The notes beneath the pieces were generated by a model that saw only the letters and a list, made by a program, of their open reading frames with translations, ran no database searches and was not told the DNA's origin. Shown here piece by piece: positions 39,728 through 60,328 of a stretch of DNA of 64,000 nt. The DNA comes from Lophium mytilinum (lineage: Eukaryota), in the NCBI GenBank assembly GCA_010093605.1, contig MU004193.1, forward strand, positions 813,520 to 877,519. The letters are read 5' to 3'. Made by a program: the position numbers and the translations under genes. How positions within the stretch are numbered: position 1 is the first letter of the stretch; each line of letters starts with the position of its first letter.

Positions 39728-40742
39728 GTTTCTAGGGGATCGAAGGGGGGCGCCTATCAAGACCAAAAATGGGGCTCCGGGCGAAAGATCAAATGTGAAC
39801 GCGAGCTTCACTGTGGCTTCAAGCCATTCCTGACAGAGCGGTATGAGCAAAGCATGTCAAACGTTACAAAGCAAGAAGTATGTGTAGAAACTTTTTCAGC
39901 AGTTCTAAAGGATGATCAAGGAATACGGGAATACTCTAAGGTGAAACCGACTATGCCGGAAAACGCTACAAACTTGCACCGCGAGACGGAGATTACGGAG
40001 GGTCAAGCTGCTCGAGAACCAATCCTTGCGCCACGTTCACGGCGCCAAAATTCACGGCGCTGAGCAGCTTAGGGTGCTCATGAAGAGGATTCCTTGCCCG
40101 CCTTAGCTTGGGTGACGTTGGGGCTTCCCAAAGCTGCTATACCGACGCTTGATGGTAGGTCAGCGCCCACTGTTTTGCTACTTTGACTGGGGTACTGATC
40201 TAGATTCGTGATGTAGGACGAGGCTTCTGCGGGTAGACACCGCTTGGCTCAGGATCTGGGCAAACTCCTATCCCCCACAAGCTGTCCACGACTATCCTGC
40301 GACCAAGTTCCATGTATTAGTTAGCGGAGACAGGGAGCTAATCAGCATCTGGAATCCTGCTAGCCGTGTCACCCGTCCCTATCATGATTATGGAGTTTCT
40401 TTTGATTCAGACAACCTGGACAGTGGTAGCTCGGTGGTGCCTCTGGCGCGCATATCATGTCAACGCTGACGGAGAGGCCACGGTCAGACCTCCAGCGTGA
40501 CTCTCGCCGTTTCATAAACGGGCTTGGAGATCACATTCGGAATTTTGCGACGTATCCCTGCGTTCTTTTATATCGTAAACGCTAGAATGTTGCATCTATT
40601 CAGGCTTAATCGTTTTCTTCCCATCTATCATAGACCCTAGAGATGTGCAATCTGGCTCTTGTTAATTTGTTTAGAAGCTTGTTTCAACTACGCATAGAGC
40701 CCTCCGCATCCTATGTACCGCCTAGCAAATATCGGTCTCCGC

Positions 40743-40985
40743 GCGGTTCGATTTCATGGCTTTTCTTACTAAAGCACCCAAAGCCTCCTCCTCTTCCCCA
40801 CCTCTACGTCTAGCTCAGCATCCTCCAAAATGTCTCTTAACGGTTCGATCCGATAGATCTTCTTACAAGTCTACCTACAAAGTATGCACCGGGAGGCTAC
40901 TTGTACGTGCGACGCTGCGTCTCCCAAAATCATTATCTACGGTTGGAATGAATACCTTTTCTTACAGAAGCACCCAAAGCCTCCA
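40743..40985 (-). repeat. Three inverted copies of the 27.7-29.5 kb repeat unit
   Basis: The reverse complement of 40743-40786 is AGGCTTTGGGTGCTTTAGTAAGAAAAGCCATGAAATCGAACCGC. Further copies lie at 40840 and 40939 (~98-bp spacing). Confidence 0.8.
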
Positions 40986-41079
40986 CGTATTGCTTGCACC
41001 TCTACCTCTATCCTCCCGTCAACCTAAATCTGATCTCCAACCGCAAAGCCCCGTCGGCGGAGATGGGGATCACATGACT

Positions 41080-42900
41080 GTCACGCGCGGCCTACCTCCG
41101 CCCCACTTCTCGTGGGTATAAAAGATCTCCTTCCAATCTCTTTTTTCTGATTCATGGATGTGTCGAGGCGGAAGGGAGATCAACAAACTGAGCAAAACTC
41201 GCTGACAGAGGGGTGTTGGATCAGCAAAACATTCTGCCCCCACTGATGATGGAGTCTTGTGTTGGGCGGGCAAAAGATCTAAGGGCAGACGGCTTCATGG
41301 TAGATTAGCTGGTGGATTAACAGCAATCACGAACCAGTTGAATGGAGTTGTGGGTGTGGGTGGATTTATCAAAATGAAGGGAAAGAAAAGCCGGTGGGTG
41401 CGTGACGTGGCGGAATGTTAGGGGTGTTGATGATGCTCTCTGCCACGATGTTTTCATAATGTCCTTCTCACGATGTCGGATCAAGAGACCGGTGGCATTT
41501 TGTACGGAAATACGATCTACCACGAGGTTAAGAAGATAAGCAGCATCATCAACCAATTACAAAAACCCCACGCATGATGTGGTTCATCCTCCAAGTCTGC
41601 ACTCAGACCATTGTGTCCTGTAGAGTATTCTTTTGCACCCACCGCCCCGCACCATAAGCCGCTACCTGTGCTCATTTGCTGCCTCGATCCCTCCTCCATG
41701 CCAACAACAAAACCAGAGACGAGGGAAGGAGACGTTCTTATACTCCATCGAAGTCCGCGCTATGTAAGCCGCACGTGGTTTCCTTCGCCTTCCCTGCACT
41801 CCCGCTTCGCCGCTTCCCCTCTTTACTCCATCACCTCTTCCCGTGATTGCCAGGTGCTAGCGTCTCCTCATGGGTATAAAAGCTCCCTCCCGCGTTAGGT
41901 TTCTTTCTGCAGAACATCCGGAGGTGGTTTGAGGGTGGAAAAAAGAAGATCACAACGCTCCATGGAGTGGTGGATCAACATGCTGTCCATCAATCTCATG
42001 GGGCTGGGGGTTGGGTCGTGTGGTTGAGCAAAAGAATACGAACACCTACACTATGTGGGTTTTGGCGTTTTGGGACGTTGAGGGAATGGTGATGCGCTTC
42101 TCCATCTATTCCTAATAATCGCAGTAATAATCATAGCATAATCCTCACCACTAAACGACACTACAGATACCAGCAACTAGCAAAGAGACATGATAGAGAG
42201 AATCACTACTTTCTGAAGGTCGACGCACCTCCATGGAAGGTCACATTATCTCAGTTTTCAGGACACAGCCACCATCCCAGGACTGCTGTGGTTGTTTTGC
42301 ACACACCAGCCCGCACCATGATTTGCAAACGGGTTGCATTTTTGTTGCCTCCAACTCCCCCCTCCATACCGACAGAAAGAGCGCAGAGGCGAGGAGGTCT
42401 TATACCCAGTCGAAACCCGGGTCATGCGACAAACACGTGCCCATCCCCCGCATGATGTCCACGCACCGATATCTTTTCGCGGGCATAGAATACCCCTCGT
42501 CGAACACAGGGCACGTGTTCTCTCTCTACCCCTAAAACTATTGAAACATGACCTATAACCGCGTGACCTCCACGTGTCTGCCCTTAAACCCACCTCTTCT
42601 CGCGAATATAAAACCTCTTCTGCCCCGTTCATCTTCCTTTCCGTAAAGGACATCGGAGATGCGAGCTCAACAGAGGATCGGGAATTAAGCGATGGACTGG
42701 AGGGGGACTGAGATCAAAAATGATTGTTCACATTTGTGATGGACTAGACTGAGCGTTGGATTAGCTCCTGGCGACTTCCCGCTTGATGAAGTTGTGTTGC
42801 GGGCGAGTGGAGCAAACTAAGATATGAGGTGTTCCCATGGGTCTCTGGAGAGGTAGTGCACTGAGAGGGTGTTAAGTGGGAGTGATGGTGGTCGTTATAT
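41080..42900. other. Cluster of five TATA-driven, apparently non-coding repeat-array units (+41117, -41742, +41875, -42404, +42607)
   Basis: GTATAA(A/G)-type boxes followed by a CT-rich tract and ATGG..G-rich..CAAAA units. CACGTG at 41772, 42434, 42512 and 42571 lies between divergent TATAs. Confidence 0.6.
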
Positions 42901-43563
42901 TCTTCTCTAATGCTAGACATAAGTGTTCAGTAGATGTAGTTTGTATGATGTTTGGCGGAAGTTAGGGGAGTTTGGGGGGGTGATGGAGAACATCATTAGG
43001 TTAAAGAGTGGACGGACACGCCTCCATTCCTGTTCAAGTTCACTGGACTTGCACAGGCAGACACCATGACGCCCATGCCTACGTGAGTTTTCAAGACACC
43101 AACCCAGAACCATTATTCGTGCTAGATTACGATGTTCGATACCTATAACTCTCTCATCCACGCCCATGACAGAAACCGGGGCTCGTCGAGAAGACTTTCC
43201 ATAATATACCTTGTCGAAGCTTGGGACATGTGAGGGACACGTGATACTGACTTCCCCGAAACGACAACACCCATCTTTCTTGGACACTGGCCCGCACGAG
43301 ACATACGCCCATGTTTCGGCACAGTATAAGCTTACAAGTTTGATGAAAAGAGAACCAGCCATAGGCCAATCTGTTCCAACTACCTACGTAACCCCCACCC
43401 CTCTCAACCCCATCGCCGAACGCAAGAAAAACACAAAAGAACCACCAATGCAGCACCATGATGCCCCAAAAAATACCAGGCGCCATTCAGACCCCTACTA
43501 GAGATATCCATATCTTATCCATGCCCATTCCCATTTCCCCTTTCCTCCCTTCCATCCCAATCA

Positions 43564-46500: not shown

Positions 46501-48792
46501 AGGCTGACGAGGTATAGCTTCCCTTGCAGGCTCGGGTTCGGCAACAATTGGTGGTCCTACAGCCTCGCTATCGTCAAAGTCGGGGAAGATCAGCTCAGAT
46601 ACTGAAGAGTCCGAGAGATCAAGCGACTCAATATCTGCGGCTGTATCAGATGGATCTACAGCCTCGTCTGTAATGTTCGCTTCCAAACTGCCATTCTCGG
46701 ATGTTGCGGGGGTAACATGCACAGATGACTCCGCAGGGGATGAATTCAGTGTTGGTAGTCCGCCATCCTCTGGTTCAGTGGCTTTCTCCTTGCCTTTTGA
46801 AGAGCCTTGATTAGCATGGGCACCGCCGTCCTCGTCAACAACGACCGCAGCTACTTGTTGCCAGCTTTCACTGCTATGATCGCTCTCATGCTCTTCTGAT
46901 TCAGAGTCCGATTGTGACAGGTGGAATTGAGGCTGTGTGTCCGCCACATCGCCACTATTCCGACTCGGGTTTTGGAGCGAAACATCGTCTGTGTTCTGGG
47001 TTTCTTCATGAGGGCGATTGACGGCCGTGGACTTCGCTTGGTCTAAAGATGGGGGGTTCCATGTTTCCCCTTCTTCTAAGCTTCGACGGATCTCCGTAGC
47101 AAGAAACGAACGGTCTCTTGCTGGCATGTTTGGCCGTTGATGAGAGCTCGATCCTTCAGGACTGTCAGGGTGCAGCGCCTCCGAAGCGCTGACTGGGTCC
47201 TCTCTCAGCGCAGGCGTGCCAGCGGCCTCCACAGTAGCCAGATCTTCGGCCCGAGTTCGGCCTGGAGTGCGTTCTGATCTAGAACTACGCTTCCTCTTCC
47301 TGGAGCTTCGTGACTCCTCGTCTGATGATACAAAATCTTCACTGTGCATCTCTTTCGATAGTTTGACAAGGGTCTGGCGTACCCTAGTAGCCTCTTCTTG
47401 TGGCAAGTTGTCAACCAAGAAAGCGACATCCGCGGAAGTGCCCGTTCGCAAAACGTGTCGTATGGGCTCGGGGAGGTCTTCGCTGGTCTTCCAAGAACCC
47501 CAATCAGCGTCGCGCGTCCTTCCAGTCGACGATGATCGCCTAGAGTTGACGGGTGTTGTTGGCCCGGGTCGGTTGTGGCGTAAATGTGTTGCAAGTCGTG
47601 CCGCATCTCCAGCTTGATGCTCTGCCCTCAACCTGGCATTTTCATCTAGTAATGCTTGACGCTCTACTCCCAATCTAGCAATCTCATCTCTAGTAGCTTG
47701 CTCTTCGTCCACCTCAAGATCGTCCTGCTCTGGTTCGGCTAGTTCTGCAGCTTCAGCAGGCTCCATCTCTTCTTGCTGAACTTCTGCGACTTGCCCTGCG
47801 TGGTTTGCATCCATGGCAGCCATATTGATCACAGGCTGTTGTTGTACAACCCACTCTCGGATGAGAAAGATGAGGATGAAGGCAATGACAACTAGTAGCG
47901 TGATGATTTGTCCTTCTAGTACATCGAGAACAAATCGATTGAGCGCTGGCGAGTTGAACCATTCAAAGAATGTGATGTCGGAAAGGAGCGAAGGATTGCG
48001 GCTTCCAAGTATGATTTCAACCGTAGCGTTCGGCGTGAGAGTGTTCCCACCTGCGGCAGATGACCCATTGGAAGCAGCGTACATCCCCAGCACGTACTTC
48101 TTAACGACTTTCCACGCCGAGGGCTCCCCCGAACTCATGTTCAGGCTCTGCGAGAAAGGAGCCAAGAATGCCGGCAAGCTTCCAAATGATATGGTAGAAT
48201 TAGTGGCGCGAGCCGATGCGATGGTCGAACGTATAGATTCTATGGCATCTCCAGTCCAGGGCGTTGCGGAGGGCACGGGTTGGGGGGTTCTTCCTTGTGG
48301 TTCGTCATACGAATTGTGATTCCAGCCACCGTCTCCTACCCAGAACAAGCTTCGCCATGTGAACCGCATGCACCACGGCAGACAAAGAAGCCATACTGTG
48401 CCCACCAATAGAGCCCGACAGCATGATATGAAGTATGTGAGGATGTGAATGATGGCTCGGCGGAAGAAGATAGTGGTGGGCAGGCGGCGCGGCATGTGCG
48501 GGTGGTAGAGCTTAGTGAAGCGGAAGGGCGTCTTGCAGAGCTCGCAGTGCTTCTTCTGGGAGTGCGACAGCCATTCCATCAGGCACTCTTGGTGGACAAA
48601 CTTGATGCTGCCACTGCACTTGCATGGGTAGAACAAGGGCTCGTCAGATGTCCCTTCGCCGCGGCATATCCGGCATGTGTCGGCCTCGTCTGCATTCTTG
48701 TCCTGTGCCTTTGCATTTGTCGCATATGCGGGGTCGTTCATGAGGTCTGGGAAAGGATCCATGGCGGCGGCAGTACCAGGCTGGTCCTCCAT
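43564..48792 (-). CDS. DOA10: ERAD E3 ubiquitin ligase Doa10/Ssm4 (MARCH6), 1742 aa, intronless
   Basis: N-terminal RING-CH (CRIC...PCKCSGSIKFVHQECLMEW...CELC), TEB4-Doa10 motifs (FIRDPDDPTFHP, HWFVGTCYM), many TMs and C-terminal RDEVYLIGERLHN. Confidence 0.95.
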   Translation of the reverse strand: MEDQPGTAAAMDPFPDLMNDPAYATNAKAQDKNADEADTCRICRGEGTSDEPLFYPCKCSGSIKFVHQECLMEWLSHSQKKHCELCKTPFRFTKLYHPHMPRRLPTTIFFRRAIIHILTYFISCCRALLVGTVWLLCLPWCMRFTWRSLFWVGDGGWNHNSYDEPQGRTPQPVPSATPWTGDAIESIRSTIASARATNSTISFGSLPAFLAPFSQSLNMSSGEPSAWKVVKKYVLGMYAASNGSSAAGGNTLTPNATVEIILGSRNPSLLSDITFFEWFNSPALNRFVLDVLEGQIITLLVVIAFILIFLIREWVVQQQPVINMAAMDANHAGQVAEVQQEEMEPAEAAELAEPEQDDLEVDEEQATRDEIARLGVERQALLDENARLRAEHQAGDAARLATHLRHNRPGPTTPVNSRRSSSTGRTRDADWGSWKTSEDLPEPIRHVLRTGTSADVAFLVDNLPQEEATRVRQTLVKLSKEMHSEDFVSSDEESRSSRKRKRSSRSERTPGRTRAEDLATVEAAGTPALREDPVSASEALHPDSPEGSSSHQRPNMPARDRSFLATEIRRSLEEGETWNPPSLDQAKSTAVNRPHEETQNTDDVSLQNPSRNSGDVADTQPQFHLSQSDSESEEHESDHSSESWQQVAAVVVDEDGGAHANQGSSKGKEKATEPEDGGLPTLNSSPAESSVHVTPATSENGSLEANITDEAVDPSDTAADIESLDLSDSSVSELIFPDFDDSEAVGPPIVAEPEPAREAIPRQPNLIERIMDWLWGDVAPAAPPTADDAGNDEHVVQNLADEAPFVPFAGQAAAAHREPGNAPRQDPEVAAAAAQAGIDLNDQDAIDDAEDLEGILELIGMQGPLSGLFQNAIFSALLISATIALAVWAPYIWGKLVLLLMGSPIVIFVKFPLQGIALGADLIVDAALCVAAGVVYWSVQLIRWVLGLLSNGFTTPADFIAKPARAVAENAMDRIAKVFVQTGTISSPDFFALSTNSHIALRTIQNTTSEALNTTGNAIVLLYEKVASANSNGTVLDMLCQVPATVLVATSAALNKAQDIALFLWTSKSYKITFNVGQNVTSTYAAIEQWTATDRLIAVCAGYMFFAVAGALYLKKSTPFTSSQQGRRVEGVVADVLQQAGGVLKVILIISIEMIAFPLYCGLLLDAAMLPLFDNATVWSRYQFTMKSPWTSGFVHWFVGTCYMFHFALFVSMCRKIMRTGVLYFIRDPDDPTFHPVRDVLERSVTTQLRKIAFSALVYGALVIICLGGVVWGLNYTSTGVLPIHWSSHTPALEFPLDLLFYNFLTPLVLKLAKPSDGLHATYQWWFRTCARFLRLSDFLFAEKNADELGHHVHRTWKHQFFGSKGDVTKPVIGDDRKLLVEDRNTEVYFLFDGKYVRAPASDQVRIPKGDPVFVEVDQSNHRLDGKPEESGVHARASEMITMVYVPPWFRVRIALFVLTIWLFAAATGVGITILPLLFGRYLFSFFIPNSVRMNDIYAFSLGIYTLGGLLYAALHIRPLLAHLHQPLRSPLSTLRTLTVTASRFAFRIARITYVYASLVLLLPILFALLLELYILIPLHAYLGPHEPHVVHLIQDWTLGFLYARLAARLLFANRQSRPARAFAAVVRDGYGDPNARLATRCFIVPVLVGFGIAIAVPSALAWGLNRTLWAGASEEVKRLVWRFCYPVVAGAGGGVWGARVCVTWVRRWRGVVRDEVYLIGERLHNFGERRGGANSGVVSAG

Positions 48793-49865
48793 GGCGGATC
48801 GGGGATCGGAAGTGGTGGGGATGTATTTGACAGAGCTGGCGCAAGCCGTGAAGGCGGATATGGCTATGTTGCTGGCATCGGCTCGGAGTGAGAGAGCGAA
48901 GGTCCTCGAACCGGTGGTAGAAGGTGTCTAGGTACGCTGGTAGAGGTGGAGTTAATTGTGGAGGTAAAGTAGTCTAGACGTCGGGCACAGTGGTGGCAGC
49001 GGCGATTGGCGGGATTGCGATCAAAGGGTGGTAGACTGAGGGCGCAGACCAAAGGTGAGTCTATATGCAAAGGGTATCTAGGAAAGCAGTCTGCTGGAGC
49101 AAGCGAAGTGGTTCAAGCAACTGGGCAGGTTGAAGTCATCGAGCGTGGGCCAGTGCCGAATTGGGCGGAGAGCACGGCAAGTTCCGCCAGCACCACGACA
49201 ACGCGGTAGTGAATGTCTAGCAGGTTTCCAGCCTTGTTCGAGTCGCAAAGACTCCTCCGGCACAGTCTGGCTCGGTCTGCTCTATAGAACCTGTTGCGAA
49301 TCAGGCGCGTGGCAGGCGGCCGCCGAGTACAAAGAGCAGCACGCGCTTGGCAGCGCCTTGATACGCAAGCGATGCGCGGTTGTTTCCCGTCGAGCCCGTC
49401 CTGAAACCGTAGTGAATGTCTTGCACCGGGCTGCTGCAACTGTGGCCATCCGCTGCCTCTCGTTCCATAAACGTCCCATAGCACGTCTTGCAGTTGTCGC
49501 GCTGTCAAACGGTTGACCGTCTTTCACGAACCACGCGCCGAACTGTCCCCCAGTCCCGCCAGTGATGTAAATGACGTTACCTCGCTTCACCATCTAGCGC
49601 AAGAAGCCCTGAAACCAGGAAACCTGCCTGCTCTTGTCAACACCGCGACCTTCCTGATCCCATAATAATTCTCTGCACATATACGCTCTGAGGCAGGCCT
49701 CGTGAGTTCCACCCCCAGCTTTGCCGCCCCAGTCCTAACAGCGTTCGAGTTCAGAAGCATCCCGGACTCCCTCCAACCCGCCTAACTGCTCCACACCCGC
49801 ATCCCGGACCGAACACAGTCAGATAGCTCTGAATCGGTGCTCACGACACCTCCGCCTGTCCAGCA

Positions 49866-52800
49866 ATGGCGGCTCAGACGAACGGAAGGGCGAAGAAGGG
49901 CAAGAAGGCCGAGGCAAACGGCCATGCCAACGGCTACACCAACAGCTACACCAACGGCAATGCAGACCCCAAAGTGAGCGGGCAGCTCTCTCGACCCGCG
50001 AGGCCAGTCAAGCAGAGAGGAAGCTTCATAGGAAGCATTTTCAGCATGTCCGCAAGGTACGATTTAACGAGAGAATTTCATACCGTTGCATACGGCCGCT
50101 GCTACAGCAAATCCGATCGGTGATGTCAATGATCCTCCGATAACCCAATGCGGAGGCTTTTTGGCCGTCTGACAAGCCCTTCTCGTTGGCGATGACCCCA
50201 AAATTCATGAGATATATATATTTTTTAGGCGGAATGGGATGGGATGGATTATCAGCAGAGATTACTAGATGCACTCTTGCAGACGGTTAGAATTCGACTG
50301 ACACCTTTACAGGCTCCTCTCATGGTATCTTCTGATAACAGTGCTATTCCGGTGTCCTTCCACCATCTCCGAGCTATCGGATTCCTCCCCTCAAGTCTGC
50401 AAACCATACCTAGAAGCACGATTATACGCTTCTCCATACGTCGACCCATACTACGAAGCCTACCTTGCGCCACAGGTGGCCAAGATTCGACCCCATGTAG
50501 ACACATTCAACAAGAAAATCTACACGCCCGCCGCCGCATTCACGGTAGACAAGTATAACACGTACGGCGCTCATCGTGTGGAACAGACGCAAGTCTATGT
50601 CCAGAATGAGTGGAACAAAGCGATAAAGCCGCAGCTGGACATTGCTCAAGCCAAAGCTAAAGGGCAATATGACTTGTATCTTGCGCCTCGCATCAAGCAG
50701 GGCTCAGACGCAGTTACGCCATATTATGAAACCACTAAAGCCACAGCTCTGGAGAAATACCAAAAGGCTGTCCTTCCGGCTTACCTAGCCGCTGTGCCCT
50801 ATGCGCAGAAGGGATACGCTCAGGGCCACTACATTACCACCCAGATCGTCTTCCCATATGTGCGATTCGCTAAAGAGTCTTCTTTCACTTTCCTCTCTCG
50901 GACGGTATGGCCGCAGTTGAGGATACTTTACGGTGATAATGTTGAGCCTCAACTTCTTCGAATTAGCGAGAGGCTCGGCAGGTACAAGGACGGAAAGAAA
51001 ATGGAGGCTGCTGCAGACTCCGTAGATGTGTAGGTCACAAATCACTATCTTACTAGAGGTATACTAAAAGTCTCAGATCGGCTGCTCTCGAGTCCCTTTC
51101 CTCCAAGGTCTCAGCGGCATCATTATCTAGTGCTGCCACTGCTACTCAGGACATTGGAAGTACCACCGCAGCCGAATCCGCCAAGCCATCGGAGATCAAA
51201 CTGACCACAGAGGAGCTCCAAGAGAAGCTCACTAACGATCTCCGAACGTGGCAGAACAAATTCGCTGTGGCCGCCGATAAGGGCTCAGAGGACTTGGAAC
51301 AACGCGTCAAGGACATCACAGCACAACAGATCAAAAACCAGGCTCATGCAGTCGGCGGAGCGTTGCTTGTACAGTTGGAAGAAATTTCCAAAAGCACCAC
51401 CACCAGCCTCAAGTCGACTATCAAGAAACTTGTAAAGACGATCCCAGACGATGTGACAGAGGAACAGCTTGAGTCTATCTATGAACAGGTGTTGGGAGCT
51501 ACGCGAACCGCTGGCACTGCTATCAAGGAGAAGGCTCAGGCAGTGAGGACCTGGAGACTGGACTATGACTTGGAAACAGACAATCTGGTCAGAGCTGCGA
51601 CGGCATCCACTGTCAAGATTCTAGACAACATTCAAGACCTCGGCCTTCAGGAAATCGGTATGCGATGGGCATGGACCGATGGTGTCACCTATAACAACTG
51701 GCAAAAGTACCATGAGCTCAAGAACACCTTGGAAGAATGGCGCAACGAGGTTGAAGCAGTAGGCTCACGACACGAGGGTCTCCGCAAGGCCCACGAGGAA
51801 AGCATGAGTGTCGAAAACAAGGCCATGGGAATCGCCGAGGAGACAGCAAAGGAATTAGTCAGGCTCAAGGAAGTTGCCAGATGGAAGCTTTGGGCTGAAG
51901 ACTCAACCGACGATTTCAGCACTAAAAAGGTTCCCGCCCGAGTCTTCAAGGCTGCTCAACAAGTCCAAGAGCATGTCGAAGAGGCTGCATCTAAGGCGTC
52001 TGAGGCCATCATTGGCTCCGAGACACCTGCCGCTGAGAGCATTGCCTCTGCTGTCAAAGAAAATGTCGACTCGGCCACGTCCAAAGTTTCCGAAGCGGTC
52101 ATTGGCACTGAAGCTAATGTAGTAGAGCAAGCCACTGATTCCATCTCATCCGCTGCTGCTTCAGCAGCCAGTGGTGCCTCTGCCGCTGGCGAGAGCGTCG
52201 TTTCAGCAGCGAAGTTCAAAAAGGCGCAGGCCCAAGAAGCCATCATCGGCACTCCGGCACCACCACTTTCCCAAGCATCTTCCAGTGTCAAATCTGTTGC
52301 GTCTGTCGCTTCTGAAGCACCAAAGAAGGTCTGGGGCGGTGCCATGGCTCAACATGTGGAAGCTAGGAAGATCATCTACGAAGACATCATCGACGATTCC
52401 GACGACACGAGCTACTCCGAGAAGATTCAGAGCGCCGTAAGCGCAGCCGGTGATCGAGCAGCTGATTTGACAAAGGCCATTAGTGAAGCTCTACTTAAGC
52501 CAGCTCCTACGCAAGGGACCGTGGAATCAGTCACGTCTTTGGCAAGTGAGCAGTACGAGAAGGCGCTCGCTGCTGCCTCTAGTGTAATCTATGGCACCGA
52601 GCAAGGCGCAGTCGAGAGTGTCTCAAGCATCGCAGCAGATAAATATGCCCAAGCCGTTACAGCGTAAGTACCGAAAACCCTTCCGAAGATTTGAGAATTC
52701 AGCGCTAACCGTTATCCATCCAGTGCTTCGTATGCCATATATGGAACCCCTGCGCCAGTCTTGTCATCAGTTCAGTCCGAAGCAAGCTCTCGATACGCCA

Positions 52801-54860
52801 ACGCCGTTAGTGTTGCTCAAAACCAGTATTCCATTGCCAAAGCCCGAGTTTCGGAGCTGGTTTCGGGAACGCCGAAGCCTGTCCACGAGGAGATGCTCTC
52901 TTCTATCGAGAACGCCTACTCCGGGTCACTATCCGCTGCGAGTGAGAGGTGGCAAGCTGTTCTTCAGTACACCAACACAGTCAAGAGCTATGCTTCAGGC
53001 CCAACACAAGGCGCCATGGAATCCATATCGTCAGTTGCTGCGTCAAGACTGTCCGAAGGTCTCAGTCTCGCTTCTGCACAGTACACCAGTGCTAAGATTG
53101 CGGTGGGTGCTGAACCGACTCCTGCATCACAGAAATATGTGGCCGAAGCGCAACGTCGTTACTACGAAGGAATTGGCCTCGCGCACGCTCGCTACTCGGA
53201 ATTTGTGGAGGCTGCTTCAAGCGCAGTCTATGGGACACCGACACCAGCGTACCAAGGTGCAATTGCAGCCGCCCAGAGCCAATACTCAGCTGCCGTTGCC
53301 GCCGCTTCGTCCAACATGGATGGCGTCCTCAGTGCTGCCAGTTCTGTCGTTGGCAAGACCACCAAGTCTCCAGCCCAAAGTGTCATAGATTCCGCCTCTT
53401 CTCAGTACGACGCCGCTGTATCCGCAGCTGCTGCTTCGCTTTCAGCAGCTTCATCTAAGGCTAGTGAGGCTATCTACGGCACACCAGCACCAGCATACCA
53501 AGGCGCAATTGCAGCGGCACAAAGCCAATACTCAGCCGCCATTGCTGCCGCCTCTTCTAACATGGACGGTGTCCTCAGTGCTGCCAGCTCCGTCGTTGGA
53601 AAGACTACTAAGTCCCCAGCACAGAGTGTTATTGACTCCGCCTCTTCTCAATACGAAGCTGCAGCATCAGCCGCGGCGGCTTCTTTCTCGGCGGCTTCGT
53701 CCAAGGCTAGTGAAGCTATATACGGCACGCAGCAGGGTACCTTCGAGTCTGTTGGCTCTGTCATTTCGGAGTCAGCTGCTTCGATTGCATCCGAGGCCAG
53801 CTCTGGTATCATTGGAACCGAAACTCCCTGGACCGAATCAGTCGCAGCTCAAGCCAGCCAAAATTGGGATGCTTTGATCTCCAAAGCCAGTGAACAGATC
53901 TACGGTGCTCCTACCCCCTTCTCCGAATCCGTCTTTTCGCAAGCAGGTGCATATGGAGCTCAGGCGACCGATGCCGCTGCCTCGCAATATGCCGCCGTGC
54001 AGGCTCTAATCTCCGAGCTCGTCGTTGGCAAGGAGCCGGACTTCACCGATAGCGTTATGATCAAGTTCTCTTCTGCATACTACGTCGGCTACCCTGCAGT
54101 CGCATCATCCGCCAGCTCCCTAGCCAGCGAAAACTACGAGGCAGCTTCATCATATGCCGCCGATGCGTACGCCTCCGCTTCCTCTGTCGTAACCTCCGTC
54201 TTCACTCCCCCGCCCGCTCTCGAAGCCATCCTCGAATCCGCCACCGAGCAGATCAACGCCGTGGTCGAAGCGGCCTCTGTTCAAGTCTATGGCACCGAAA
54301 AGGGCACCATCGAGCAAGCAACCGAAGCCGCCGCGAGCGCCTACTCCTCTGTCCAGTCCCGCGCCAGCGAAGCCGTCTACGGAACGCAGCCTAGCTATGC
54401 CGAGGCCGCGCAAGCCAGCTTCGCCGACGTTGCGTCGAGCGCTCAGAACGCCATCAGCATCGCTATCTACGGCACCCCCACCGGCACCATCGAGTCGGCG
54501 ACTAGCGGCGCTGCGAGCGCGTACAGCTCCGTCGCCTCTGTAGTCGCTGAGAACGCTGCTGCTGCTGCGTCTGCGGCTGGGGGCACCTACGATGCGGCGA
54601 AGGCGAAGGTCAGCGAGGCGATCTATGGGCCGGAGCAGAGCGCTGTTGAGAGCGCCCAGTCACGCCTCTTGGCTGCGGTGGAAAGCGCTAAGGCGAAGCT
54701 CAGCGATCTATACGAGAATGGATTACCGGAGCAGGTCGAGGCTGCGAAGTCGAAGATCGAGGAACTCGCCAGCAACATCAACGGCGCTGCGAGCGGCGCT
54801 GCTAGCAGCGTTTCGAGCGCGGCGGCGAAGGCGACGGATAGAGTCAAGGATGAGTTGTAG
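49866..54860 (+). CDS. Large ER-type protein: N-terminal TM, coiled coil, Ala/Ser-rich YG repeats, C-terminal KDEL; exons 49866-50056, 50313-51029, 51077-52663, 52724-54860
   Basis: Three canonical introns join the ORFs in frame. RLLSWYLLITVLFRCP..C signal anchor, recurring (I/V)YGT motifs, and the protein ends RVKDEL. Confidence 0.88.
53229..53725 (+). repeat. Coding tandem duplication, 246 bp (82 aa) x2
   Basis: YGTPTPAYQGAIAAAQSQYS... at 53229 and YGTPAPAYQGAIAAAQSQYS... at 53475. Many of the differences are synonymous. Confidence 0.92.
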
Positions 54861-55679
54861 ATGAGCCTTAGCAATTGGAAAGAACGAACAAAGGAGGGAG
54901 GGAGAGGCGAGAAGACGCATATGGCGGCATCAGACTGATTTTGCATTTTTTGCACGAAATGAGGCATGGAACGTTTCTTCAAACTCCTTTTCGCTCGGAT
55001 CACACCGAATCACACACTTTTCCTCCCCACCACGTCAGATCGTTACGGTACGGAAATACGAACACTATGAGGCACGAAGAACGGACGACAACTGTATCAT
55101 GCTGCACCCCCTTACCCTACTTTTCTACTTCTTGGTCGCTTCGAGGCGGCGGCTTTCTACTTTGCGTGTTTGCTGTTTGTGCGGGACCCCTCTCCAGAGT
55201 GTATTTGTATTTCGGGTGCGGGTGTGGTGGGTTTGATTCCTTGGGCTGCGGGGTGCGGGGTGCGTGTTTCCTTTTTTGCTGCTTTGGAGGGAGGGATGGG
55301 GGCTAGGGGTAGATGAGGGGAGGGTGGTAATGATGTGTATGTAGTATGGGCACTTCCTCTTAGCGATTGCGAGAATTATACCCTTCGTTTAGTAGGCGTG
55401 TTGTGGGTGATGTCGTGTGAACGCAGCTTTGTGAAGTGTAAATACAGTAACAGCCTCAAAGTCTTGTATTCCCATTTCTTTCAAGATTCGCGGTCTTCGC
55501 CTTTCACAGCGCCTCAGATGGATTGTGCTATACTCCATCCTCGGTTATTCAATTTGTCACGCTCTCTTTTCGGCACTATCTCATGATACGTTTACGTTAC
55601 ACGTCCATCCAAGTCCGATGCCCATCAAATGATCACATGTCCCTTTCCCCTCTCTCTAGTCACAAGTCCTCTTCAAGTG

Positions 55680-56945
55680 CCACGTCAGTCCCTCGTGACC
55701 GCCAAGCGCCCCACCTTCTGAGCAGTATAAGAACTTCTCCCGCCCGCTAGCTCGCTTTCTTCTTCTTCAGGGAAACATTGAAGAAGGCAGGGAAGGGGGG
55801 GGGGGGGAATCAAAAAGCAACCAACCTCAAGGCGGATGGACTGGGTGGGAGGGGGATGAAAATACTATTGCTACTTGGAACTGGACGATGGCTGGGTGGG
55901 AGTGGGAGGTGTGGTCGTTCAAAAATCTCTTTCATGACTGGTCATGAGCGAGTGGGAGGTGTGGTCGTTCAAAAATCTCTTTCATGACTGGTCATGAGCG
56001 AGTGGGAGGTGTGGTCGTTCAAAAATCTCTTTCATGACTGGTCATGAGCGAGTGGGGTTGGGGATTGAAATCCCAGGCTCTCAGATCGCATGGCTTGGGT
56101 GGAGAAGTGGAAGACTGTCTAAAACCAAAAGGATGTGCTTCGCAAGCTAGACATGGGGCTGGGGAGGGTCGTGTGGGTTTTTCAAAAATCACAAAAACAC
56201 TCGATGGATGTTGTGGAGGTTGGGGATCAAAAACGGGAAATCGAATGCCTTATGAGTTTGGCGGAGGAGGAGTCTCAACTACAACTTTCCACCACAACTC
56301 CCGATGTGCGGAAGGGGTCGTACAAACCGGCTTCTGAAAAGAGTGTCATGGCTGGAGCTGGGCCGGTATGGATAATAATATTTTGCACGCCATTCGCATG
56401 GCTGGAGCTGGGATGGTCTGGAAATCAACATTCTCCAAAGCATTGGGTAATGTGTTGGTGGAAACGGGTGCGTCGTCAACCTCCCAAGGCTAAGGTTCCT
56501 ATGGTGGAGGATGTTTTGAACAAACCTCCCAGAATACGAGGGGGTATGGCTGGGCTGCGCTTGTCGAAAACTCAACGAAGATGCGATATATGGTTGGATT
56601 GTGGAAGCCGGGATGTCGACATCGTTATGACGTCCTCATAATGAGTTGAGTCAACAAAAACATTACGACACAATATTCATGGTCCGACTGCGGAGACTCG
56701 GATATCAATGCAATAATGGCTTCCTTGCGATGGGTGGATTCACAAGCGTTATACCACTGGATCCATGACCAGGCTGTGGAAGTCGGGATATCGACAGTCG
56801 ACGACATGTTCATTGATGGATTGAGGTGGAGTGGAGTGGCATTAATCAGATTAAGCCGCTCGTTTCATGTTGGTGGCTTCTGGGTGGTTCAATTGTAAAC
56901 ATCAAAGAGACGATGACTGGAGGTGGAAGAAGGGGAGTTACAGCT
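55680..56945 (+). other. TATA-driven long array (~20-25 units) of the ATGG-G-rich-CAAAA family
   Basis: TATAAG at 55726, CT tract, ACAT at 55775, then units at ~45-55 nt spacing. Confidence 0.6.
55900..56056 (+). repeat. Perfect 50-bp tandem repeat x3
   Basis: GAGTGGGAGGTGTGGTCGTTCAAAAATCTCTTTCATGACTGGTCATGAGC at 55900, 55950 and 56000. Confidence 0.95.
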
Positions 56946-57039
56946 ACACGGTGATCATCTTTCGGGAAGTCCGTGGTTTCAGTACCTCTCCCTCGGCGCT
57001 GCTCTATAGTTTCAGCACCTCCACCTCAGCACTACTCCG

Positions 57040-57312
57040 ATGGCCTCGTTCAACGAAAATTCCGACGAGCTCATACTCGCTATAGTCGCTGATGTGGCTC
57101 TCGAAGACATCGTCAGTCTTTCAAAGACATGTCGTCACCTCCGCGAGATCGCCCTCCCAGCGTTCTTTTACACCGTAGCGTTGACCTGGGCAACGACGCA
57201 AAGCAGGGATAGGATCCTCCCATATCCAGAAGCGGGCTTGATTCTGCGAACGGTTGTCCGGGACTCTTCCCTCGCCGCACTCGCAAAGGTGGTTAATCTT
57301 CGGATGCGATGA
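57040..57312 (+). pseudogene. Truncated F-box protein gene
   Basis: SDELILAIV...LEDIVSLSKTCRHLREIALP.FFYTV...LILRTV is an F-box-like N-terminus. The frame stops after 90 aa with no obvious continuation. Confidence 0.55.
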
Positions 57313-57399
57313 GTGTCTAAGATAGGGGCGAACCTTCATTCTTAGGTTATGGTAGGGATATGGGAGGAGATCGAGGAGAACGGTGATGGGCTTCTGTGA

Positions 57400-58430
57400 C
57401 ATGCTGGAATGGGGGGTACCATCATCGTTCACTGAAGCTACTATTCCGAGCACCAATAGCAACATCCCCGCCTCTTTCAAACCCCGGCAAACTCATAAAT
57501 CGGTCGAAGCCAATGTTTTGATCAGGCACTGGCTTCATGGGAACTCATGCTGGCGCATTTTTCGACCGCGGCTGTAAACCTTCTCCTTGAACAACTCTTC
57601 CCTCTCCTTACTTCTCTCTTTTATACAGTGAAAAAGATGAAGAGTCACATGATAGCAGACTTAAACCCCGTACCCAACTCCTATCATTCGCTCCAGGCCC
57701 TCTTTGGATATACCTACCTCCCACTATCGCCTCACATCAACCATCTCACGTGGCCCTCTTCCCTTCCACGTGATGCCTGTTAGTCCCCTCTTCCGGTGGG
57801 TATAAAAACCCCCTTCCCTTCCTCAACTTCTCTTCTTCAAGGTCGACATCAATGGTGGCGGCAAGGGAGCAAAACCATGGTATTAGAGACTACATGTGGC
57901 CGTTCGGTGGAGGGGCAACAGCTTGACCACCTCCTGCCATGTGGTGTTGTCTAGCTGGAGCAGTAAGAGGGAGATGTAGCGCAACATGGAGCGTTGGTTG
58001 GGGGAGCAAAAAGCCTCACTATTGGGATATAAGTGATGATGATTAGTAGGATTTCGGAAAGAAGCTAGATATCAACGTCACGATAGAGATCTAATATCGC
58101 CCATATAAAGCAATAGTATTGGTATGCAATAATGCTCTCCGTCAATCATGAAGAGAAGAGCTCTTCAACTATTATACGCAATGTCGAACATCCGCATTGA
58201 AAGCCACTTACAGCACGCCGGCCACACTCAACCATTTCTATGGTCTTGAAGCTCGCAGATCACCGAGCAGACCATGTTTAGTAGCGTATTCCTATTTTAT
58301 AGCTCCCATTTCTTCCTCCATTTTTCCTCTCTCCCCTCTCCCTTTTCTCCCTTGATTTCTTCCTCATCTCCCACTTGCCCACACTTTATACCTTAGCTGA
58401 CAGCACTCCACACTCCCCTCTCCCACGTGC
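57400..58430. other. Further TATA/CACGTG units of the same non-coding array family (-57625, +57801, -58389)
   Basis: CACGTG at 57747, 57767 and 58423. GGGTATAAAA at 57798, ACAT at 57846, and ATGG...GAGCAAAA units downstream. Confidence 0.5.
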
Positions 58431-60328
58431 CCCCCCTCACTCCCGTGACCTTTCCCGTGACTCTCCCGTTATCACACCCCCTCGACCTCCCCCCAACCAA
58501 TCACCCACCCCTGCGCCACCGTTGCCAAGCCCCCGTCTCCACCCACACCAAAGCGCAAATTCAACCCACCAGATCTTGACAGCTAACGGGCGGGGGCCCG
58601 TGCACCTAGCTAACACTCCCTCCTTCCCCAAGGAATGGTGGTCTGACATCCCTCCAAACCACCCTCTACCCTATGCACCCTCCCCCATCCAGCCACACTA
58701 CACCGGAACAACCCGTCTCTCACGTGTCTCACCCCAACAAACCATCACACCGTGAAAAGGGTGTGAGGCAGCTATGCAAAACACCTCAAAATCTGACTTG
58801 TCTCGCGGATAGCCACGGATACGCCAGCCAGCCCCAACGACTCATGCGCTTCCCACAGTCTCATTCCTCGAGTAAGGCCTTGGCGGGCTCGGAGATGGGA
58901 GTGCTTAGCCAATCTCTATACAGCAACACCTCATTAATATTTCCCTGCAGCTGGCATCCTGGCTCCCCTAACTCTCCCAACTCCTAATCCAATATTATGG
59001 AAACGAAAAAGTGGGATCATTGCGCTGCTAACCACCTGCCCGATTCACGCACGCACCTACCGATTTTGTTAAAGAATTTCGCAATTCGCAGAGTAGCTAG
59101 TGTGCTCGTACTATAGAAAGAGAGCGTGGTGTTGCGTATCCAGTCTATCCGAAATATAGAGTGGGTCTACACCATTCAATTCGTGCGGTCTCACACCACC
59201 ATCACCAGATGCGGAGCGAGGGGCTGGGGGGAGGGGTAAAGAAATGTGATAAGCAGTGCAGATGACCGCCAGAAGCACACACAGTTCACGTCGCATACAT
59301 ACACCCTCTCATGCATTGAAAAAACGGCTGTTGGGGGCCACGAATCTCGACTATACACGTGGACGGTTGGATTGGAGGATAGGTTTTATTGTTTATACTA
59401 CTAGGCTAGATTTTCGAACTACCATATGTTGTAAGTATGTAGGTATGTGTCCCCAATATCCCCGTTACCATACTTTCCGTCCTTCCTTCCATTTGCATTT
59501 GCCTTGACTTGCCCGTCGCATCGTACTCGCACTCGCTCGCTTCGAAACAAGACAAACATTACAGTTTTCTTTCTCCGCAAACCCCGCCAGCGCATATTCC
59601 CTTGAAAGTGCCCAGCACTTCCTCCCCACCAGCCGGTCCGCTCCACTCATCTAGCAGAAAAAACAGTCCATACTTTTCTCAGTCGTCTTTTAAGCACAAT
59701 CGTAATCCGCAGAAAAACAGAAGATACAGTTGCTGTATATCCGCACTCCATATCCGCAATAGAGGTTAAAGAAATTCGGCATAGAACACGGGATATATCG
59801 CACTCAGAAAACCACAAGCGCAAGAAAAGAAAAAGACATGAAGCATGAAAGTCTAGGACGGCCTAGTAGCCATCCATAATAGTACCCGTGAGAGACACCC
59901 ACGAATACCGCACCTCAAAGCTCCGGATTGATTGAAGCAGAAAAGGCAAGAGGAGAGAGACATGAAGCACTAGGGACAGCCAAGACCATCCCCGTCTCAC
60001 TCCATGCAGGTCCCGCAGCCGCACATTGAATAATGTTTCAACAAGCCAGCGGCGGCCGCCCACACCCAAAAAGCGCCTAGGCCGTACCAGGGAATGCCCG
60101 AAGAAAAGATACAGAGAAAATGGGGTGAGCGATCAGCATCTCCCAAAACTCGTCCGTGACAGATGGGGAAAGAGGCCCGCTAGCCGGGGTGCCATGCCTG
60201 TCGCTTCGGATGCGAACATGCAGGTTCGCAGTTTTATCCGGAGGCTTTGTGCATTTTCAGCGAGAATTTCGGTTCCCGCGCTCCGACTGCTGAGTCGAGC
60301 ACGGGTTGGCGCAGGGATTGCGACTTTC

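What the first reader, a model, noticed from the sequence alone, without database searches (positions are those of the whole stretch)
55680..56945. Longest array of the family: ~20-25 units behind a single TATA
Seen: after TATAAG (55726), a CT tract and ACAT (55775), units repeat every ~45-55 nt. Examples are ATGGACTGGGTGGGAGGGGGATGAAAA, ATGAGCGAGTGGGAGGTGTGGTCGTTCAAAAA, ATGGGGCTGGGGAGGGTCGTGTGGGTTTTTCAAAAA, ATGGATGTTGTGGAGGTTGGGGATCAAAAA and ATGGCTGGGCTGCGCTTGTCGAAAA, each followed by a different A/C-richer 15-25 nt segment. The unit at ~56153 closely matches the unit at ~41998, 14 kb away (ATGGGGCTGGGG..GGGTCGTGTGG...CAAAA), which links the loci. Units decay with distance from the promoter. 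Inference: this polarity is reminiscent of leader-proximal growth in repeat-spacer arrays. That is an analogy only; there are no cas-like genes here.
Basis: partly seen in the sequence, partly recalled or inferred. Interest (0 to 1): 0.8.

Follow-up and report, generated by a model that had tools for sequence, protein, structure and literature searches.

The report
Transcribed G-rich minisatellite RNA gene family
A fungal promoter drives a highly expressed, apparently non-coding RNA made of about 23 decaying copies of a 49-base G-rich unit; it is the largest of at least seven similar small genes nearby, and it grows by ordinary tandem duplication rather than CRISPR-like spacer capture.

Summary
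From 55836 to 56959 there are 23 head-to-tail units of 48.9 +/- 6.1 nt. Each is an ATG-led G-rich block followed by an A/C-rich block. The ~50-nt G periodicity survives collapsing the perfect 3x50-bp core (0 of 300 shuffles) and is the strongest in the window. Unit quality falls with distance from the TATA (rho -0.67).

The array is the largest of at least seven paralogous modules. Each has an E-box 28-30 nt upstream of a TATA, a CT tract, then a body that is G-rich on the sense strand. An RNA run has a colinear, unspliced contig over 56034-58002 at depth 702, and 4464 summed depth in the promoter-proximal bin. The region is therefore neither silent nor the upstream gene's 3' UTR.

I found no conserved peptide, per-unit hairpin, Rfam match, consistent G-quadruplex, transposon or RNAi genes, or relatives. 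The "spacers" are duplicated together with the "repeats", so this is tandem duplication, not spacer acquisition.

Best reading: a lineage-specific, transcribed G-rich minisatellite that forms a non-coding RNA gene. Its function is unknown; I infer it lies in the promoter-proximal G-rich RNA. Strand and RNA ends are unproven.

The parts
55681..55699 (+). Imperfect E-box region of module L4 (CACGTC at 55681-55686, CTCGTGAC at 55692-55699). It lies 26 nt upstream of the TATA, at the position where sister modules carry CACGTG.
55726..55733 (+). TATA box (TATAAGAA) of module L4
55734..55778 (+). CT-rich tract and the ACAT start-like motif (55775-55778). The start site is predicted, not mapped.
   Evidence: RNA cover begins somewhere between 55525 and 56034.
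55780..55835 (+). Purine-rich leader containing a 13-G run (55795-55807). The run is 3 G longer in the DNA-run contig.
   Evidence: (table 4)
55836..56959 (+). Array of 23 units of about 49 nt, each an ATG-led G-rich block followed by an A/C-rich block. Units 1-8 are well formed; later units are decayed.
55900..56056 (+). Perfect 50-nt x 3.1 tandem core, the youngest copies. The identical 17-residue mini-ORFs are tiled by ATGA overlaps.
   Evidence: DNA contig depths of 2x and 3x agree with three copies.
56090..56251 (+). Units 6-8, colinear with the three-unit body of sister module L2 (41962-42105)
56034..58002 (.). Stretch covered by one colinear, unspliced RNA-run contig (1969 nt, depth 701.6, 0 differences). 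Strand unknown.
   Evidence: table 8, record 13
56986..57302 (+). Partial copy of the 5' part of a gene whose paralogue lies elsewhere in the genome. It holds a 91-codon ORF (57040-57312) with no Pfam match and bounds the array on the right.
   Evidence: (record 7, loose ends at 56986 and 57302)
57747..58013 (+). Module L5: two CACGTG boxes (57747, 57767), TATAAAAA at 57801, a CT tract, and a body of 4-5 units. The RNA contig ends at 58002.
41075..41400 (+). Module L1 (TATA at 41117, body from 41150)
41470..41777 (-). Module LA (CACGTG at 41772-41777, TATA at 41742 on the minus strand), divergent partner of L2
41832..42120 (+). Module L2 (TATA at 41875; body homologous to L4 units 6-8)
42130..42439 (-). 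Module LB (CACGTG at 42434-42439, TATA at 42404 on the minus strand), divergent partner of L3
42571..42960 (+). Module L3 (CACGTG at 42571-42576, TATA at 42607)
42990..43243 (-). Doubtful degenerate module LC (CACGTG at 43238, weak TATA near 43207, body GC skew -0.08)

Best explanation
The region is a transcribed, degenerate G-rich minisatellite. It forms the body of a lineage-specific, most likely non-coding RNA gene.

What the sequence and RNA data show: a TATA/CT-tract promoter at 55726 precedes 23 tandem units of about 49 nt, each a G block plus an A/C block. The locus is the largest of at least seven paralogous modules in two clusters (41.0-43.3 kb and 55.7-58.0 kb). All share an E-box, or a near-variant, 28-30 nt upstream of the TATA, and a body that is G-rich on the sense strand. 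The region lies in abundant, unspliced RNA.

How the array forms (inferred from its anatomy): it grows by tandem duplication of whole units at the promoter-proximal end, through slippage, unequal exchange or break repair. Older copies drift distally and decay. That produces the polarity.

Function (inferred, not shown): the active part is the promoter-proximal 250-450 nt. It would be a short, abundant G-rich RNA with repeated GGUGG / UGGAG / C-A4-5 modules. I think it most likely acts as a multivalent binding platform for a protein or for C/U-rich nucleic acid, or through R-loops on its own template, under a CACGTG-binding bHLH regulator. It is not a repeat-spacer memory array.
For: Periodicity and unit count.

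Whole-unit duplication: the 3 x 50 bp core at 100% and the 56347/56397 pair at 75% over 48 nt.

Polarity: rho -0.67, p 5e-4.

Family:
- The unit motif scan gives 12 of 13 plus-strand hits and 3 of 3 minus-strand hits inside the two clusters.
- The strict TATA/CT pattern gives 6 hits, all six of them family modules; the seventh module, L3, did not fit the pattern and was added from the repeat and alignment results.
- The E-box-N24-34-TATA composite gives 4 matches against 0.03 expected; 0 of 100 shuffles reach 4.
- 9 of the 17 CACGTG sites in the window lie in 41772-43243 or 57747-58726.
- Sense-strand GC skew of the bodies is +0.19 to +0.47 in 7 of 7 core modules.
- L2 is colinear with L4 units 6-8.

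Expression:
- X3 is an RNA run. It shows 4 GT..AG joints in neighbouring genes that are absent from DNA run X1.
- Its 1969-nt contig covers 56034-58002 at depth 701.6, against 142.6 for the Doa10-like gene and 576 for the upstream gene.
- Bin arithmetic shows no cover over 55202-55524.
- The bin 55525-56125 sums to 4464.5, against 701.6 downstream. The DNA run gives 191 against 155 for the same bins.

Non-coding:
- Mini-ORFs of the seven modules share no peptide, and their indels are not multiples of three.
- The 162-residue ORF has no relative among 5.8 billion proteins other than itself.
- Pfam finds nothing.
Against: - Contigs give no strand, no ends and no reliable local depth. The tool itself warns that depth cannot rank parts of a gene. 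An antisense transcript starting near 58002 with 3'-biased cover would fit the same table.
- Only one RNA run of one strain was available.
- The sister modules at 41-43 kb are nearly silent in that run (summed depth 0-7.4), so family-wide function is not shown.
- L4, the expressed member, lacks a perfect CACGTG.
- No conservation outside this genome could be tested. RNA contigs of a related species did not lay on 55525-58500 at 80% likeness (recorded only as tried).
- Better preservation of G blocks than A/C blocks is clear in only 2 of 5 paralogous unit pairs (88 vs 63% and 88 vs 62%). The other three pairs gave 68/62, 73/62 and 70/71%.
- No binding partner is known.
- Canonical three-tetrad G4 motifs occur only twice in the array.
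Confidence: 0.55

Rival explanations
1. Neutral by-product. A promoter fragment with a short downstream piece was duplicated locally several times in a fast-changing intergenic region. One copy acquired an expanding minisatellite. The RNA is transcriptional noise from a strong orphan promoter and has no function.
For: - There are no relatives of the ORF.
- No array is present downstream of the orthologous gene in syntenic but distant relatives L001, L002 and L007. Synteny ends exactly there.
- A truncated gene copy sits next to the array (record 7).
- The distal units decay.
- The sister modules are almost silent.
Against: - Depth is higher than that of the neighbouring housekeeping genes.
- The E-box-TATA spacing (28-30 nt) and the sense-strand G-richness are kept in seven modules, although most of the rest of their sequence no longer aligns well (mean column identity 46%).
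- Some G blocks are kept at 88% while their A/C blocks are at 62-63%.
Confidence: 0.17
2. Polycistronic micropeptide mRNA, analogous to tal/pri of insects (recalled). Each ATG-led unit would be translated into a short Trp/Gly-rich peptide by repeated re-initiation. Examples are MDWVGGG and three copies ending in ...EWEVWSFKNLFHDWS.
For: - ATG marks the start of the G block near 17 of 22 G-rise points.
- The first AUG (55836) has G at -3 and +4.
- In the perfect repeats each ORF fills its unit and ends in an ATGA overlap with the next.
- The RNA is abundant.
Against: - ATG is not enriched over dinucleotide shuffles (35 vs 32.5).
- Position -3 of the 22 unit ATGs is near uniform: A4, C6, G7, T5.
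- There is no codon-position periodicity of G in the position table.
- Unit lengths are not multiples of three, and sister modules differ by frame-breaking indels.
- No peptide is shared between modules.
- No homologue exists.
Confidence: 0.1
3. A long 5' leader loaded with upstream ORFs that controls translation of a downstream coding region (the ORF at 57040-57312).
For: One RNA contig runs without a break from the array through that ORF (record 13). One search lists 38 ATGs from 55836 to 56913, all upstream of the ATG at 57040.
Against: - The ORF has only 91 codons, has no Pfam match, and is a partial copy of a paralogue whose sequence departs at 56986 and 57302.
- The other modules (L1, L2, L3, LA, LB) have no downstream ORF at all.
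- The same contig runs on through the L5 promoter, so contig continuity may simply reflect overlapping transcripts.
Confidence: 0.08
4. Precursor of small RNAs. These would be either per-unit hairpins (miRNA-like) or siRNAs from convergent module pairs whose 3' ends abut (L1/LA, L2/LB, L3/LC, L5/L6).
For: Module pairs converge within tens of nucleotides. The region is abundantly transcribed.
Against: - There is no per-unit hairpin. The G block paired with its own A/C block gives -9.90 kcal/mol, against -9.97 for non-cognate pairs (2747 of 5000 permutations as good).
- The fold z-score is -2.37 for the proximal half and +0.08 for the distal half.
- There is no Rfam match at gathering score.
- L4 has no convergent partner over the array.
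- No small-RNA data were available.
Confidence: 0.06
5. A CRISPR-like adaptive repeat-spacer array with leader-proximal acquisition.
For: Only the polarity, and the fact that G blocks are somewhat better kept than A/C blocks in 2 of 5 pairs.
Against: - Units are duplicated whole.
- There is no constant repeat.
- Spacers have no matches elsewhere in the window.
- The host is eukaryotic, with spliced genes.
- There are no cas-like or nuclease neighbours.
Confidence: 0.01

Closest known systems
G-rich hypervariable minisatellites with polar turnover (human MS32 / CEB1 type; recalled, not tested here)
   Same: Tandem units of tens of nucleotides, strong G/C strand asymmetry, whole-unit duplication, and newest or most homogeneous copies at one end next to a flanking cis element.
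   Different: This array lies inside an abundant transcript directly behind a TATA promoter. It belongs to a family of paralogous promoter-plus-body modules. Variation between isolates was not observed here.
Tandem-repeat-containing long non-coding RNAs that act as multivalent protein platforms (Xist A-repeat or FIRRE type; recalled)
   Same: Non-coding transcript built from repeated short modules separated by variable linkers. No conserved ORF.
   Different: No binding protein, structure or phenotype is known. The modules are unstructured by the fold tests. The family is restricted to one lineage as far as could be seen.
Immunoglobulin class-switch regions with sterile germline transcripts (recalled)
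   Same: Repeats of about 50 nt that are G-rich on the non-template strand, immediately downstream of a dedicated promoter and transcribed without coding. This composition favours R-loops.
   Different: Fungal host, no deaminase system, array ten-fold shorter. R-loops were not tested.
tal/pri polycistronic small-ORF mRNA of insects (recalled)
   Same: One transcript carrying several tandem ATG-led mini-ORFs.
   Different: The tal peptides share a conserved motif. Here no peptide is conserved between units or modules, and frames are broken by indels.
CRISPR arrays
   Same: Periodic alternation of better-kept and poorly kept segments behind a leader-like promoter. Polarity.
   Different: No constant repeat, no foreign spacers, whole-unit duplication, eukaryotic host, no cas genes.

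Membership tests
Minisatellite (tandem repeat, 10-100-nt unit) | Head-to-tail units of similar length, more than chance would give | tested here: met
   23 units of 48.9 +/- 6.1 nt. G periodicity reached by 0 of 300 shuffles after collapsing the perfect core.
Minisatellite (tandem repeat, 10-100-nt unit) | Growth by duplication of whole units | tested here: met
   3 x 50 bp at 100%; the 56347/56397 pair at 75% over 48 nt; the 56600/56775 pair at 91% over 22 nt.
Minisatellite (tandem repeat, 10-100-nt unit) | Copy-number variation between individuals | not testable with these tools
   Only one strain was available in the DNA and RNA runs. DNA contig depths of 2x and 3x fit three copies of the core.
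Non-coding RNA gene | Transcribed | tested here: met
   RNA-run contig over 56034-58002 at depth 701.6. The 55525-56125 bin sums to 4464.5. One run only; strand unknown.
Non-coding RNA gene | No conserved or long ORF | tested here: met
   No shared peptide among modules. The 162-residue ORF is an orphan. No Pfam match.
Non-coding RNA gene | Membership of a described RNA family | tested here: not met
   Rfam gave 0 matches at gathering score over the whole window. Over 55500-58200 there were only 4 chance-level matches, E 0.69-3.7.
CRISPR-type repeat-spacer array | Constant direct repeat alternating with unique spacers of foreign origin | tested here: not met
   G blocks vary in sequence and length. 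A/C blocks are co-duplicated with them and match nothing else in the window beyond 14 nt.
CRISPR-type repeat-spacer array | Associated cas-like genes; prokaryotic host | tested here: not met
   Pfam on 18 + 69 ORFs found none. GT..AG introns in neighbouring genes.
miRNA-like or hairpin small-RNA cluster | Each unit folds into a stable hairpin | tested here: not met
   Cis duplex -9.90 vs non-cognate -9.97 kcal/mol; 2747 of 5000 permutations as good. Distal half z = 0.08.
Polycistronic small-ORF mRNA (tal/pri-like) | Repeated ORFs encoding a conserved peptide motif | tested here: not met
   Peptides differ between units and modules. Indels break frames.
Polycistronic small-ORF mRNA (tal/pri-like) | Translation of the mini-ORFs | not testable with these tools
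   Needs ribosome profiling or mass spectrometry.
Fungal peptide-pheromone precursor genes | C-terminal Cys-aliphatic-aliphatic-X ORF, or a secreted precursor with repeated peptides between dibasic sites (features recalled) | tested here: not met
   No mini-ORF longer than 5 residues in the seven modules ends in such a motif. There is no continuous repeat-bearing frame, because the 50-nt unit shifts the frame.
G-quadruplex repeat array | Four runs of three or more G in every unit | tested here: not met
   Only 2 canonical motifs in the array (55790-55807, 56155-56177). Two-tetrad motifs occur in about 15 places but number 182 on this strand of the window.
Transposable element (LTR, TIR or MITE) | Terminal repeats, many dispersed copies, element-encoded proteins | tested here: inconclusive
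   No terminal inverted repeats around the module pairs. No transposase or reverse-transcriptase domains. The DNA run laid no extra contigs at 80% likeness on 40500-58500 apart from one gene paralogue. More diverged copies elsewhere in the genome could not be searched because no genome is held.

The most novel reading that the evidence does not exclude
The seven or more modules are a previously undescribed class of fungal genes: short, abundant RNAs regulated through an E-box. Their working parts would be tandem 'AUG - G-rich block - C(A)4-5' modules, and their dosage would be tuned by promoter-proximal unit duplication. The modules could act as a multivalent sponge or scaffold for a G-rich-RNA-binding protein or for C/U-rich leaders. 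Alternatively they could be serially translated micropeptide cistrons, or nested polyadenylation sites giving a ladder of short RNAs. Better preservation of G blocks than linkers would then reflect selection on the RNA.
Probability: 0.2. Interest if true: 0.75.

Novelty: new variant of a known kind. Interest (0 to 1): 0.5.

Why it matters
If the promoter-proximal G-rich RNA is functional, this would be an easily handled example of a young, lineage-specific non-coding RNA gene family. Its modular body expands and decays in place, so birth, amplification and death of RNA modules could be read from a single locus. The nine-module neighbourhood, seven firm and two doubtful, with a fixed E-box-TATA spacing, also offers a compact system for studying a bHLH-controlled bidirectional promoter. 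If the locus is neutral, it is still a clean fungal case of a polar, transcribed G-rich minisatellite. It also serves as a caution that periodic 'repeat-spacer' patterns in eukaryotes can arise from plain tandem duplication.

Tried and rejected
- **Whole-genome search.** No genome is held for this window, so family size outside the window is unknown.
- **Earlier scan notes.** Nothing by place, sequence or words.
- **RNA holders.** The run search listed no holder on record as RNA. X3 was only guessed to be RNA; I took it as RNA because of its spliced joints.
- **Related species.** Organism C runs X4 and X6 (about 90-95% alike in neighbouring coding regions) laid nothing on 55525-58500 at 80% likeness. 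A part without cover is not evidence either way.
- **Sister modules in the RNA run.** The 41-43 kb modules had summed depth 0-7.4 in X3, and the one contig there (41029-41481) starts upstream of the predicted L1 start. This is reported only as low cover.
- **Metagenome relatives of the upstream gene.**
  - 16 loci were found, at 37-64% amino-acid identity. None has unit motifs, E-box-TATA composites or 40-60-nt G/C periodicity above 1.56.
  - Synteny (Doa10-like gene plus upstream gene) is kept in L001, L002 and L007 but stops at the array position.
  - These relatives are too distant to say when the family arose, and their records could not be searched further.
- **Rfam.** Nothing. No tRNA genes.
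- **Hairpins.** Per-unit hairpins rejected. Global structure is weak.
- **G-quadruplex.** Rejected as a unit feature.
- **ATG enrichment.** Rejected.
- **Pheromone-precursor reading.** Rejected; no prenylation-type ORF ends and no continuous repeat frame.
- **Protein homology.** The 162-residue ORF hits only itself.
- **Transposon reading.** No terminal repeats and no element proteins.
- **Spacer targets.** No matches within the window.
- **Literature.** Two full-text searches returned only general reviews in the listings and nothing on such a fungal family. The first was minisatellite / G-rich / filamentous fungi / non-coding RNA / tandem repeat. The second was polycistronic / small ORFs / micropeptide / Ascomycota / tandem. 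I read listings and abstract starts only, so this is not proof that the family is unpublished.
Full report
**1. Setting.** The window comes from a filamentous-ascomycete-like eukaryote. Long ORFs carry HET, DUF7580, RabGAP-TBC, Sedlin, GST, eIF-5A and a Doa10/MARCH6-type RING ligase. Neighbouring genes show GT..AG introns in an RNA run. No tRNA genes, Rfam families, transposase, reverse-transcriptase, RNAi or cas-like domains were found. No whole genome is held.

**2. The observation.** All landmarks are present: TATAAGAA at 55726-55733, a CT tract up to 55769, ACAT at 55775-55778, and a purine-rich leader with a 13-G run.
- Tandem Repeats Finder sees only the perfect 50-nt x 3.1 core at 55900-56056.
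- The G content is nevertheless periodic at 46-52 nt across the whole stretch. With the core collapsed to one copy, the spectral peak (5.15) is reached by 0 of 300 dinucleotide shuffles, whose maxima average 1.27.
- In 500-nt sliding windows the array scores up to 9.83 against a window median of 0.48, and still 3.4-3.8 over 56301-57000.
- Cutting at the ATG that opens each G block gives 23 units of 48.9 +/- 6.1 nt.
- Each unit is an ATG, about 22 nt of G/T-rich sequence, then about 25 nt of A/C-rich sequence. In the proximal units the second part begins with C/T followed by four or five A.
- ATG itself is not over-represented (35 vs 32.5 expected). It is in phase, though: an ATG lies within 6 nt of 17 of 22 objectively called G-rise points, and CAT and ATG are the two best trinucleotide markers of a G rise.

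**3. Polarity and growth.**
- The G fraction of the block falls with unit index (Spearman -0.67, p 5e-4). The C/T-A4 motif occurs in 6 of 11 proximal units and 1 of 12 distal units.
- The youngest copies lie near the promoter. They are three identical 50-nt units, then a 75% pair at 56347/56397 and a 91% 22-nt pair at 56600/56775.
- In every case the G block and the A/C block are copied together.
- The A/C blocks match nothing else in the window beyond 12-14 nt.
- This is the signature of a minisatellite that duplicates whole units, most actively at one end. It is not a repeat-spacer array that takes up foreign DNA.

**4. A family.** The same architecture recurs.
- A motif scan for ATG + G-rich + NCAAAA found 13 plus-strand hits, 12 of them in 41.2-42.7 kb or 55.9-58.0 kb. 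It found 3 minus-strand hits, all in 41.6-42.4 kb.
- A strict TATA-plus-pyrimidine pattern found six sites, all of them family promoters. A seventh, L3, appears in the repeat and alignment results.
- The seven firm modules are L1 (+41117), LA (-41742), L2 (+41875), LB (-42404), L3 (+42607), L4 (+55726, this finding) and L5 (+57801).
- LC (-43207) and L6 (-58396) are doubtful.
- LA|L2 and LB|L3 are divergent pairs about 130-200 bp apart, repeated roughly every 660-760 bp.
- All seven carry CACGTG, or a one- or two-base variant, 28-30 nt upstream of the TATA. The exact composite occurs 4 times against 0.03 expected (0 of 100 shuffles).
- 9 of the window's 17 CACGTG sites sit in the two clusters.
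- In all seven the body is G-rich on the strand the promoter points along (GC skew +0.19 to +0.47).
L2's three units align colinearly with L4 units 6-8 over about 105 nt (score 32; best of 200 shuffles 21). Multi-unit bodies therefore predate the duplications.

**5. Expression.** One search found seven runs.
- X3, flagged only as possibly RNA, carries four GT..AG joints in neighbouring genes that DNA run X1 lacks. I therefore treat it as RNA of the same strain; it shows 0 differences over about 20 kb.
- Its contig for the upstream gene ends at 55201. By bin arithmetic nothing covers 55202-55524.
- A 1969-nt contig then covers 56034-58002 colinearly, unspliced, at depth 701.6. For comparison, the Doa10-like gene has 142.6 and the upstream gene 576.
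- The bin 55525-56125 sums to 4464.5. In the DNA run the same two bins give 191 and 155.
- The array is therefore neither silent nor the upstream gene's 3' UTR. The promoter-proximal ~260 nt may be several-fold more abundant than the rest.
- Caveats stated by the tool: contigs give no strand, no ends and no reliable local depth. An antisense transcript with 3'-biased cover cannot be excluded.
- The contig also runs through a truncated gene copy (56986-57302) and the L5 promoter, and stops inside L5's last unit.
- The modules at 41-43 kb have summed depth 0-7.4 in this run.

**6. What it is not.**
- *Coding.* The mini-ORFs include MDWVGGG and three copies ending EWEVWSFKNLFHDWS tiled by ATGA overlaps. 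They share nothing with those of sister modules, whose alignments contain frame-breaking indels. Position -3 of the unit ATGs is unbiased, and G shows no codon periodicity. The 162-residue ORF has no relative in 5.8 billion proteins and no Pfam match.
- *Structured RNA.* G blocks pair no better with their own A/C block than with others (-9.90 vs -9.97 kcal/mol; 2747 of 5000 permutations). Fold z-scores are -2.37 (proximal) and 0.08 (distal).
- *G-quadruplex array.* There are only two canonical motifs.
- *Pheromone precursors.* There are no prenylation-type ORF ends and no continuous repeat frame.
- *Transposon.* There are no terminal repeats, no element proteins, and no extra DNA contigs at 80% likeness apart from one gene paralogue. 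Diverged copies elsewhere in the genome could not be sought.

**7. Relatives.** Sixteen metagenome loci encode relatives of the upstream gene at 37-64% identity. L001, L002 and L007 keep the Doa10-like gene and the upstream gene in the same order. They have nothing comparable downstream: no unit motifs, no E-box-TATA composite, and periodicity of at most 1.56. The family is therefore absent at this position in distant relatives. Nearer relatives could not be examined.

**8. Mechanism.**
- *Shown:* promoter architecture, unit anatomy, whole-unit duplication, polarity, paralogy and abundant RNA.
- *Inferred, evolution:* the array expands at its promoter-proximal end by slippage, unequal exchange or repair of breaks. 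Promoters are the usual sites of meiotic breaks in fungi (recalled). Older copies drift outward and decay.
- *Inferred, function:* the working part is a short, abundant, G-rich RNA from the first 250-450 nt, with repeated GGUGG/UGGAG blocks and C(A)n sites. These k-mers are 5-13-fold enriched and occur in 4-7 of the 7 modules.
- *Weak support for constraint on G blocks:* 88% vs 63% and 88% vs 62% identity in two paralogous pairs. Three other pairs show little or no difference.
- *Most likely modes of action:* a multivalent binding platform, or R-loop formation on its C-rich template, under a CACGTG-binding bHLH factor. The micropeptide, uORF-leader, small-RNA and neutral readings remain open, at the confidences given under the rival explanations.

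**9. Comparison and verdict.**
- It behaves like a polar G-rich minisatellite, and membership is met on unit structure and on duplication mode. Variability between isolates was not testable.
- It is embedded in a repeat-built non-coding RNA. It resembles immunoglobulin switch regions only in composition and in having a sterile transcript.
- It fails every tested CRISPR criterion.
- Two literature searches turned up nothing on such a fungal family (listings only).
- I rate it a new variant of a known kind, with moderate interest. It is a real, expressed and unusual locus of unknown function, and the tests that would decide between readings are straightforward.

Noticed in passing
window 56986-57312: A 91-codon ORF (57040-57312, F-box-like by eye, no Pfam match) lies in a roughly 320-nt partial copy of a gene whose paralogue sits elsewhere in the genome. 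The paralogue is on a 3401-nt DNA contig with 31 + 11 differences and is itself expressed at depth 92 in the RNA run. Similarity ends at 56986 and 57302.
   Followed up: partly
window 55795-55807: The 13-G run in the leader is 3 G longer in the DNA-run contig (insertion behind 55794). This is either homopolymer length uncertainty or instability.
   Followed up: no
window 58300-58760: A strongly C-rich plus strand (GC skew -0.37) with CACGTG at 58424 and 58721 and a minus-strand TATAAAG near 58391-58397. This may be a further, degenerate minus-strand family module (L6) converging on L5. There was no RNA cover beyond 58002 in the one run.
   Followed up: partly
window 55240-55440: A G/T-rich stretch just upstream of the L4 promoter. 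It includes a GGGGTGC x 3 heptamer repeat (55243-55264) and a canonical G4 motif (55289-55324), and lies beyond the end of the upstream gene's RNA contig (55201).
   Followed up: no
window 53227-53728: A 246-nt x 2.0 tandem repeat (82% match) inside the coding region of the upstream gene (about 50.3-54.9 kb, three introns seen, no Pfam domain). The gene is conserved next to the Doa10-like gene in metagenome relatives.
   Followed up: partly
window 1801-2208: A 162-nt tandem repeat, 2.0-2.3 copies, 82-89% match.
   Followed up: no
window 44333 / 51874: Contigs of the related organism C (runs X4, X6; depth 158-321) join 44333 to 51874 with five extra letters between. This may be a chimeric or low-likeness placement, or a rearrangement in that species.
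   Followed up: no
window 41400-41470, about 42125, about 42975: Bodies of neighbouring modules converge almost end to end (L1/LA, L2/LB, L3/LC). Transcripts from opposite strands could overlap at their 3' ends.
   Followed up: no
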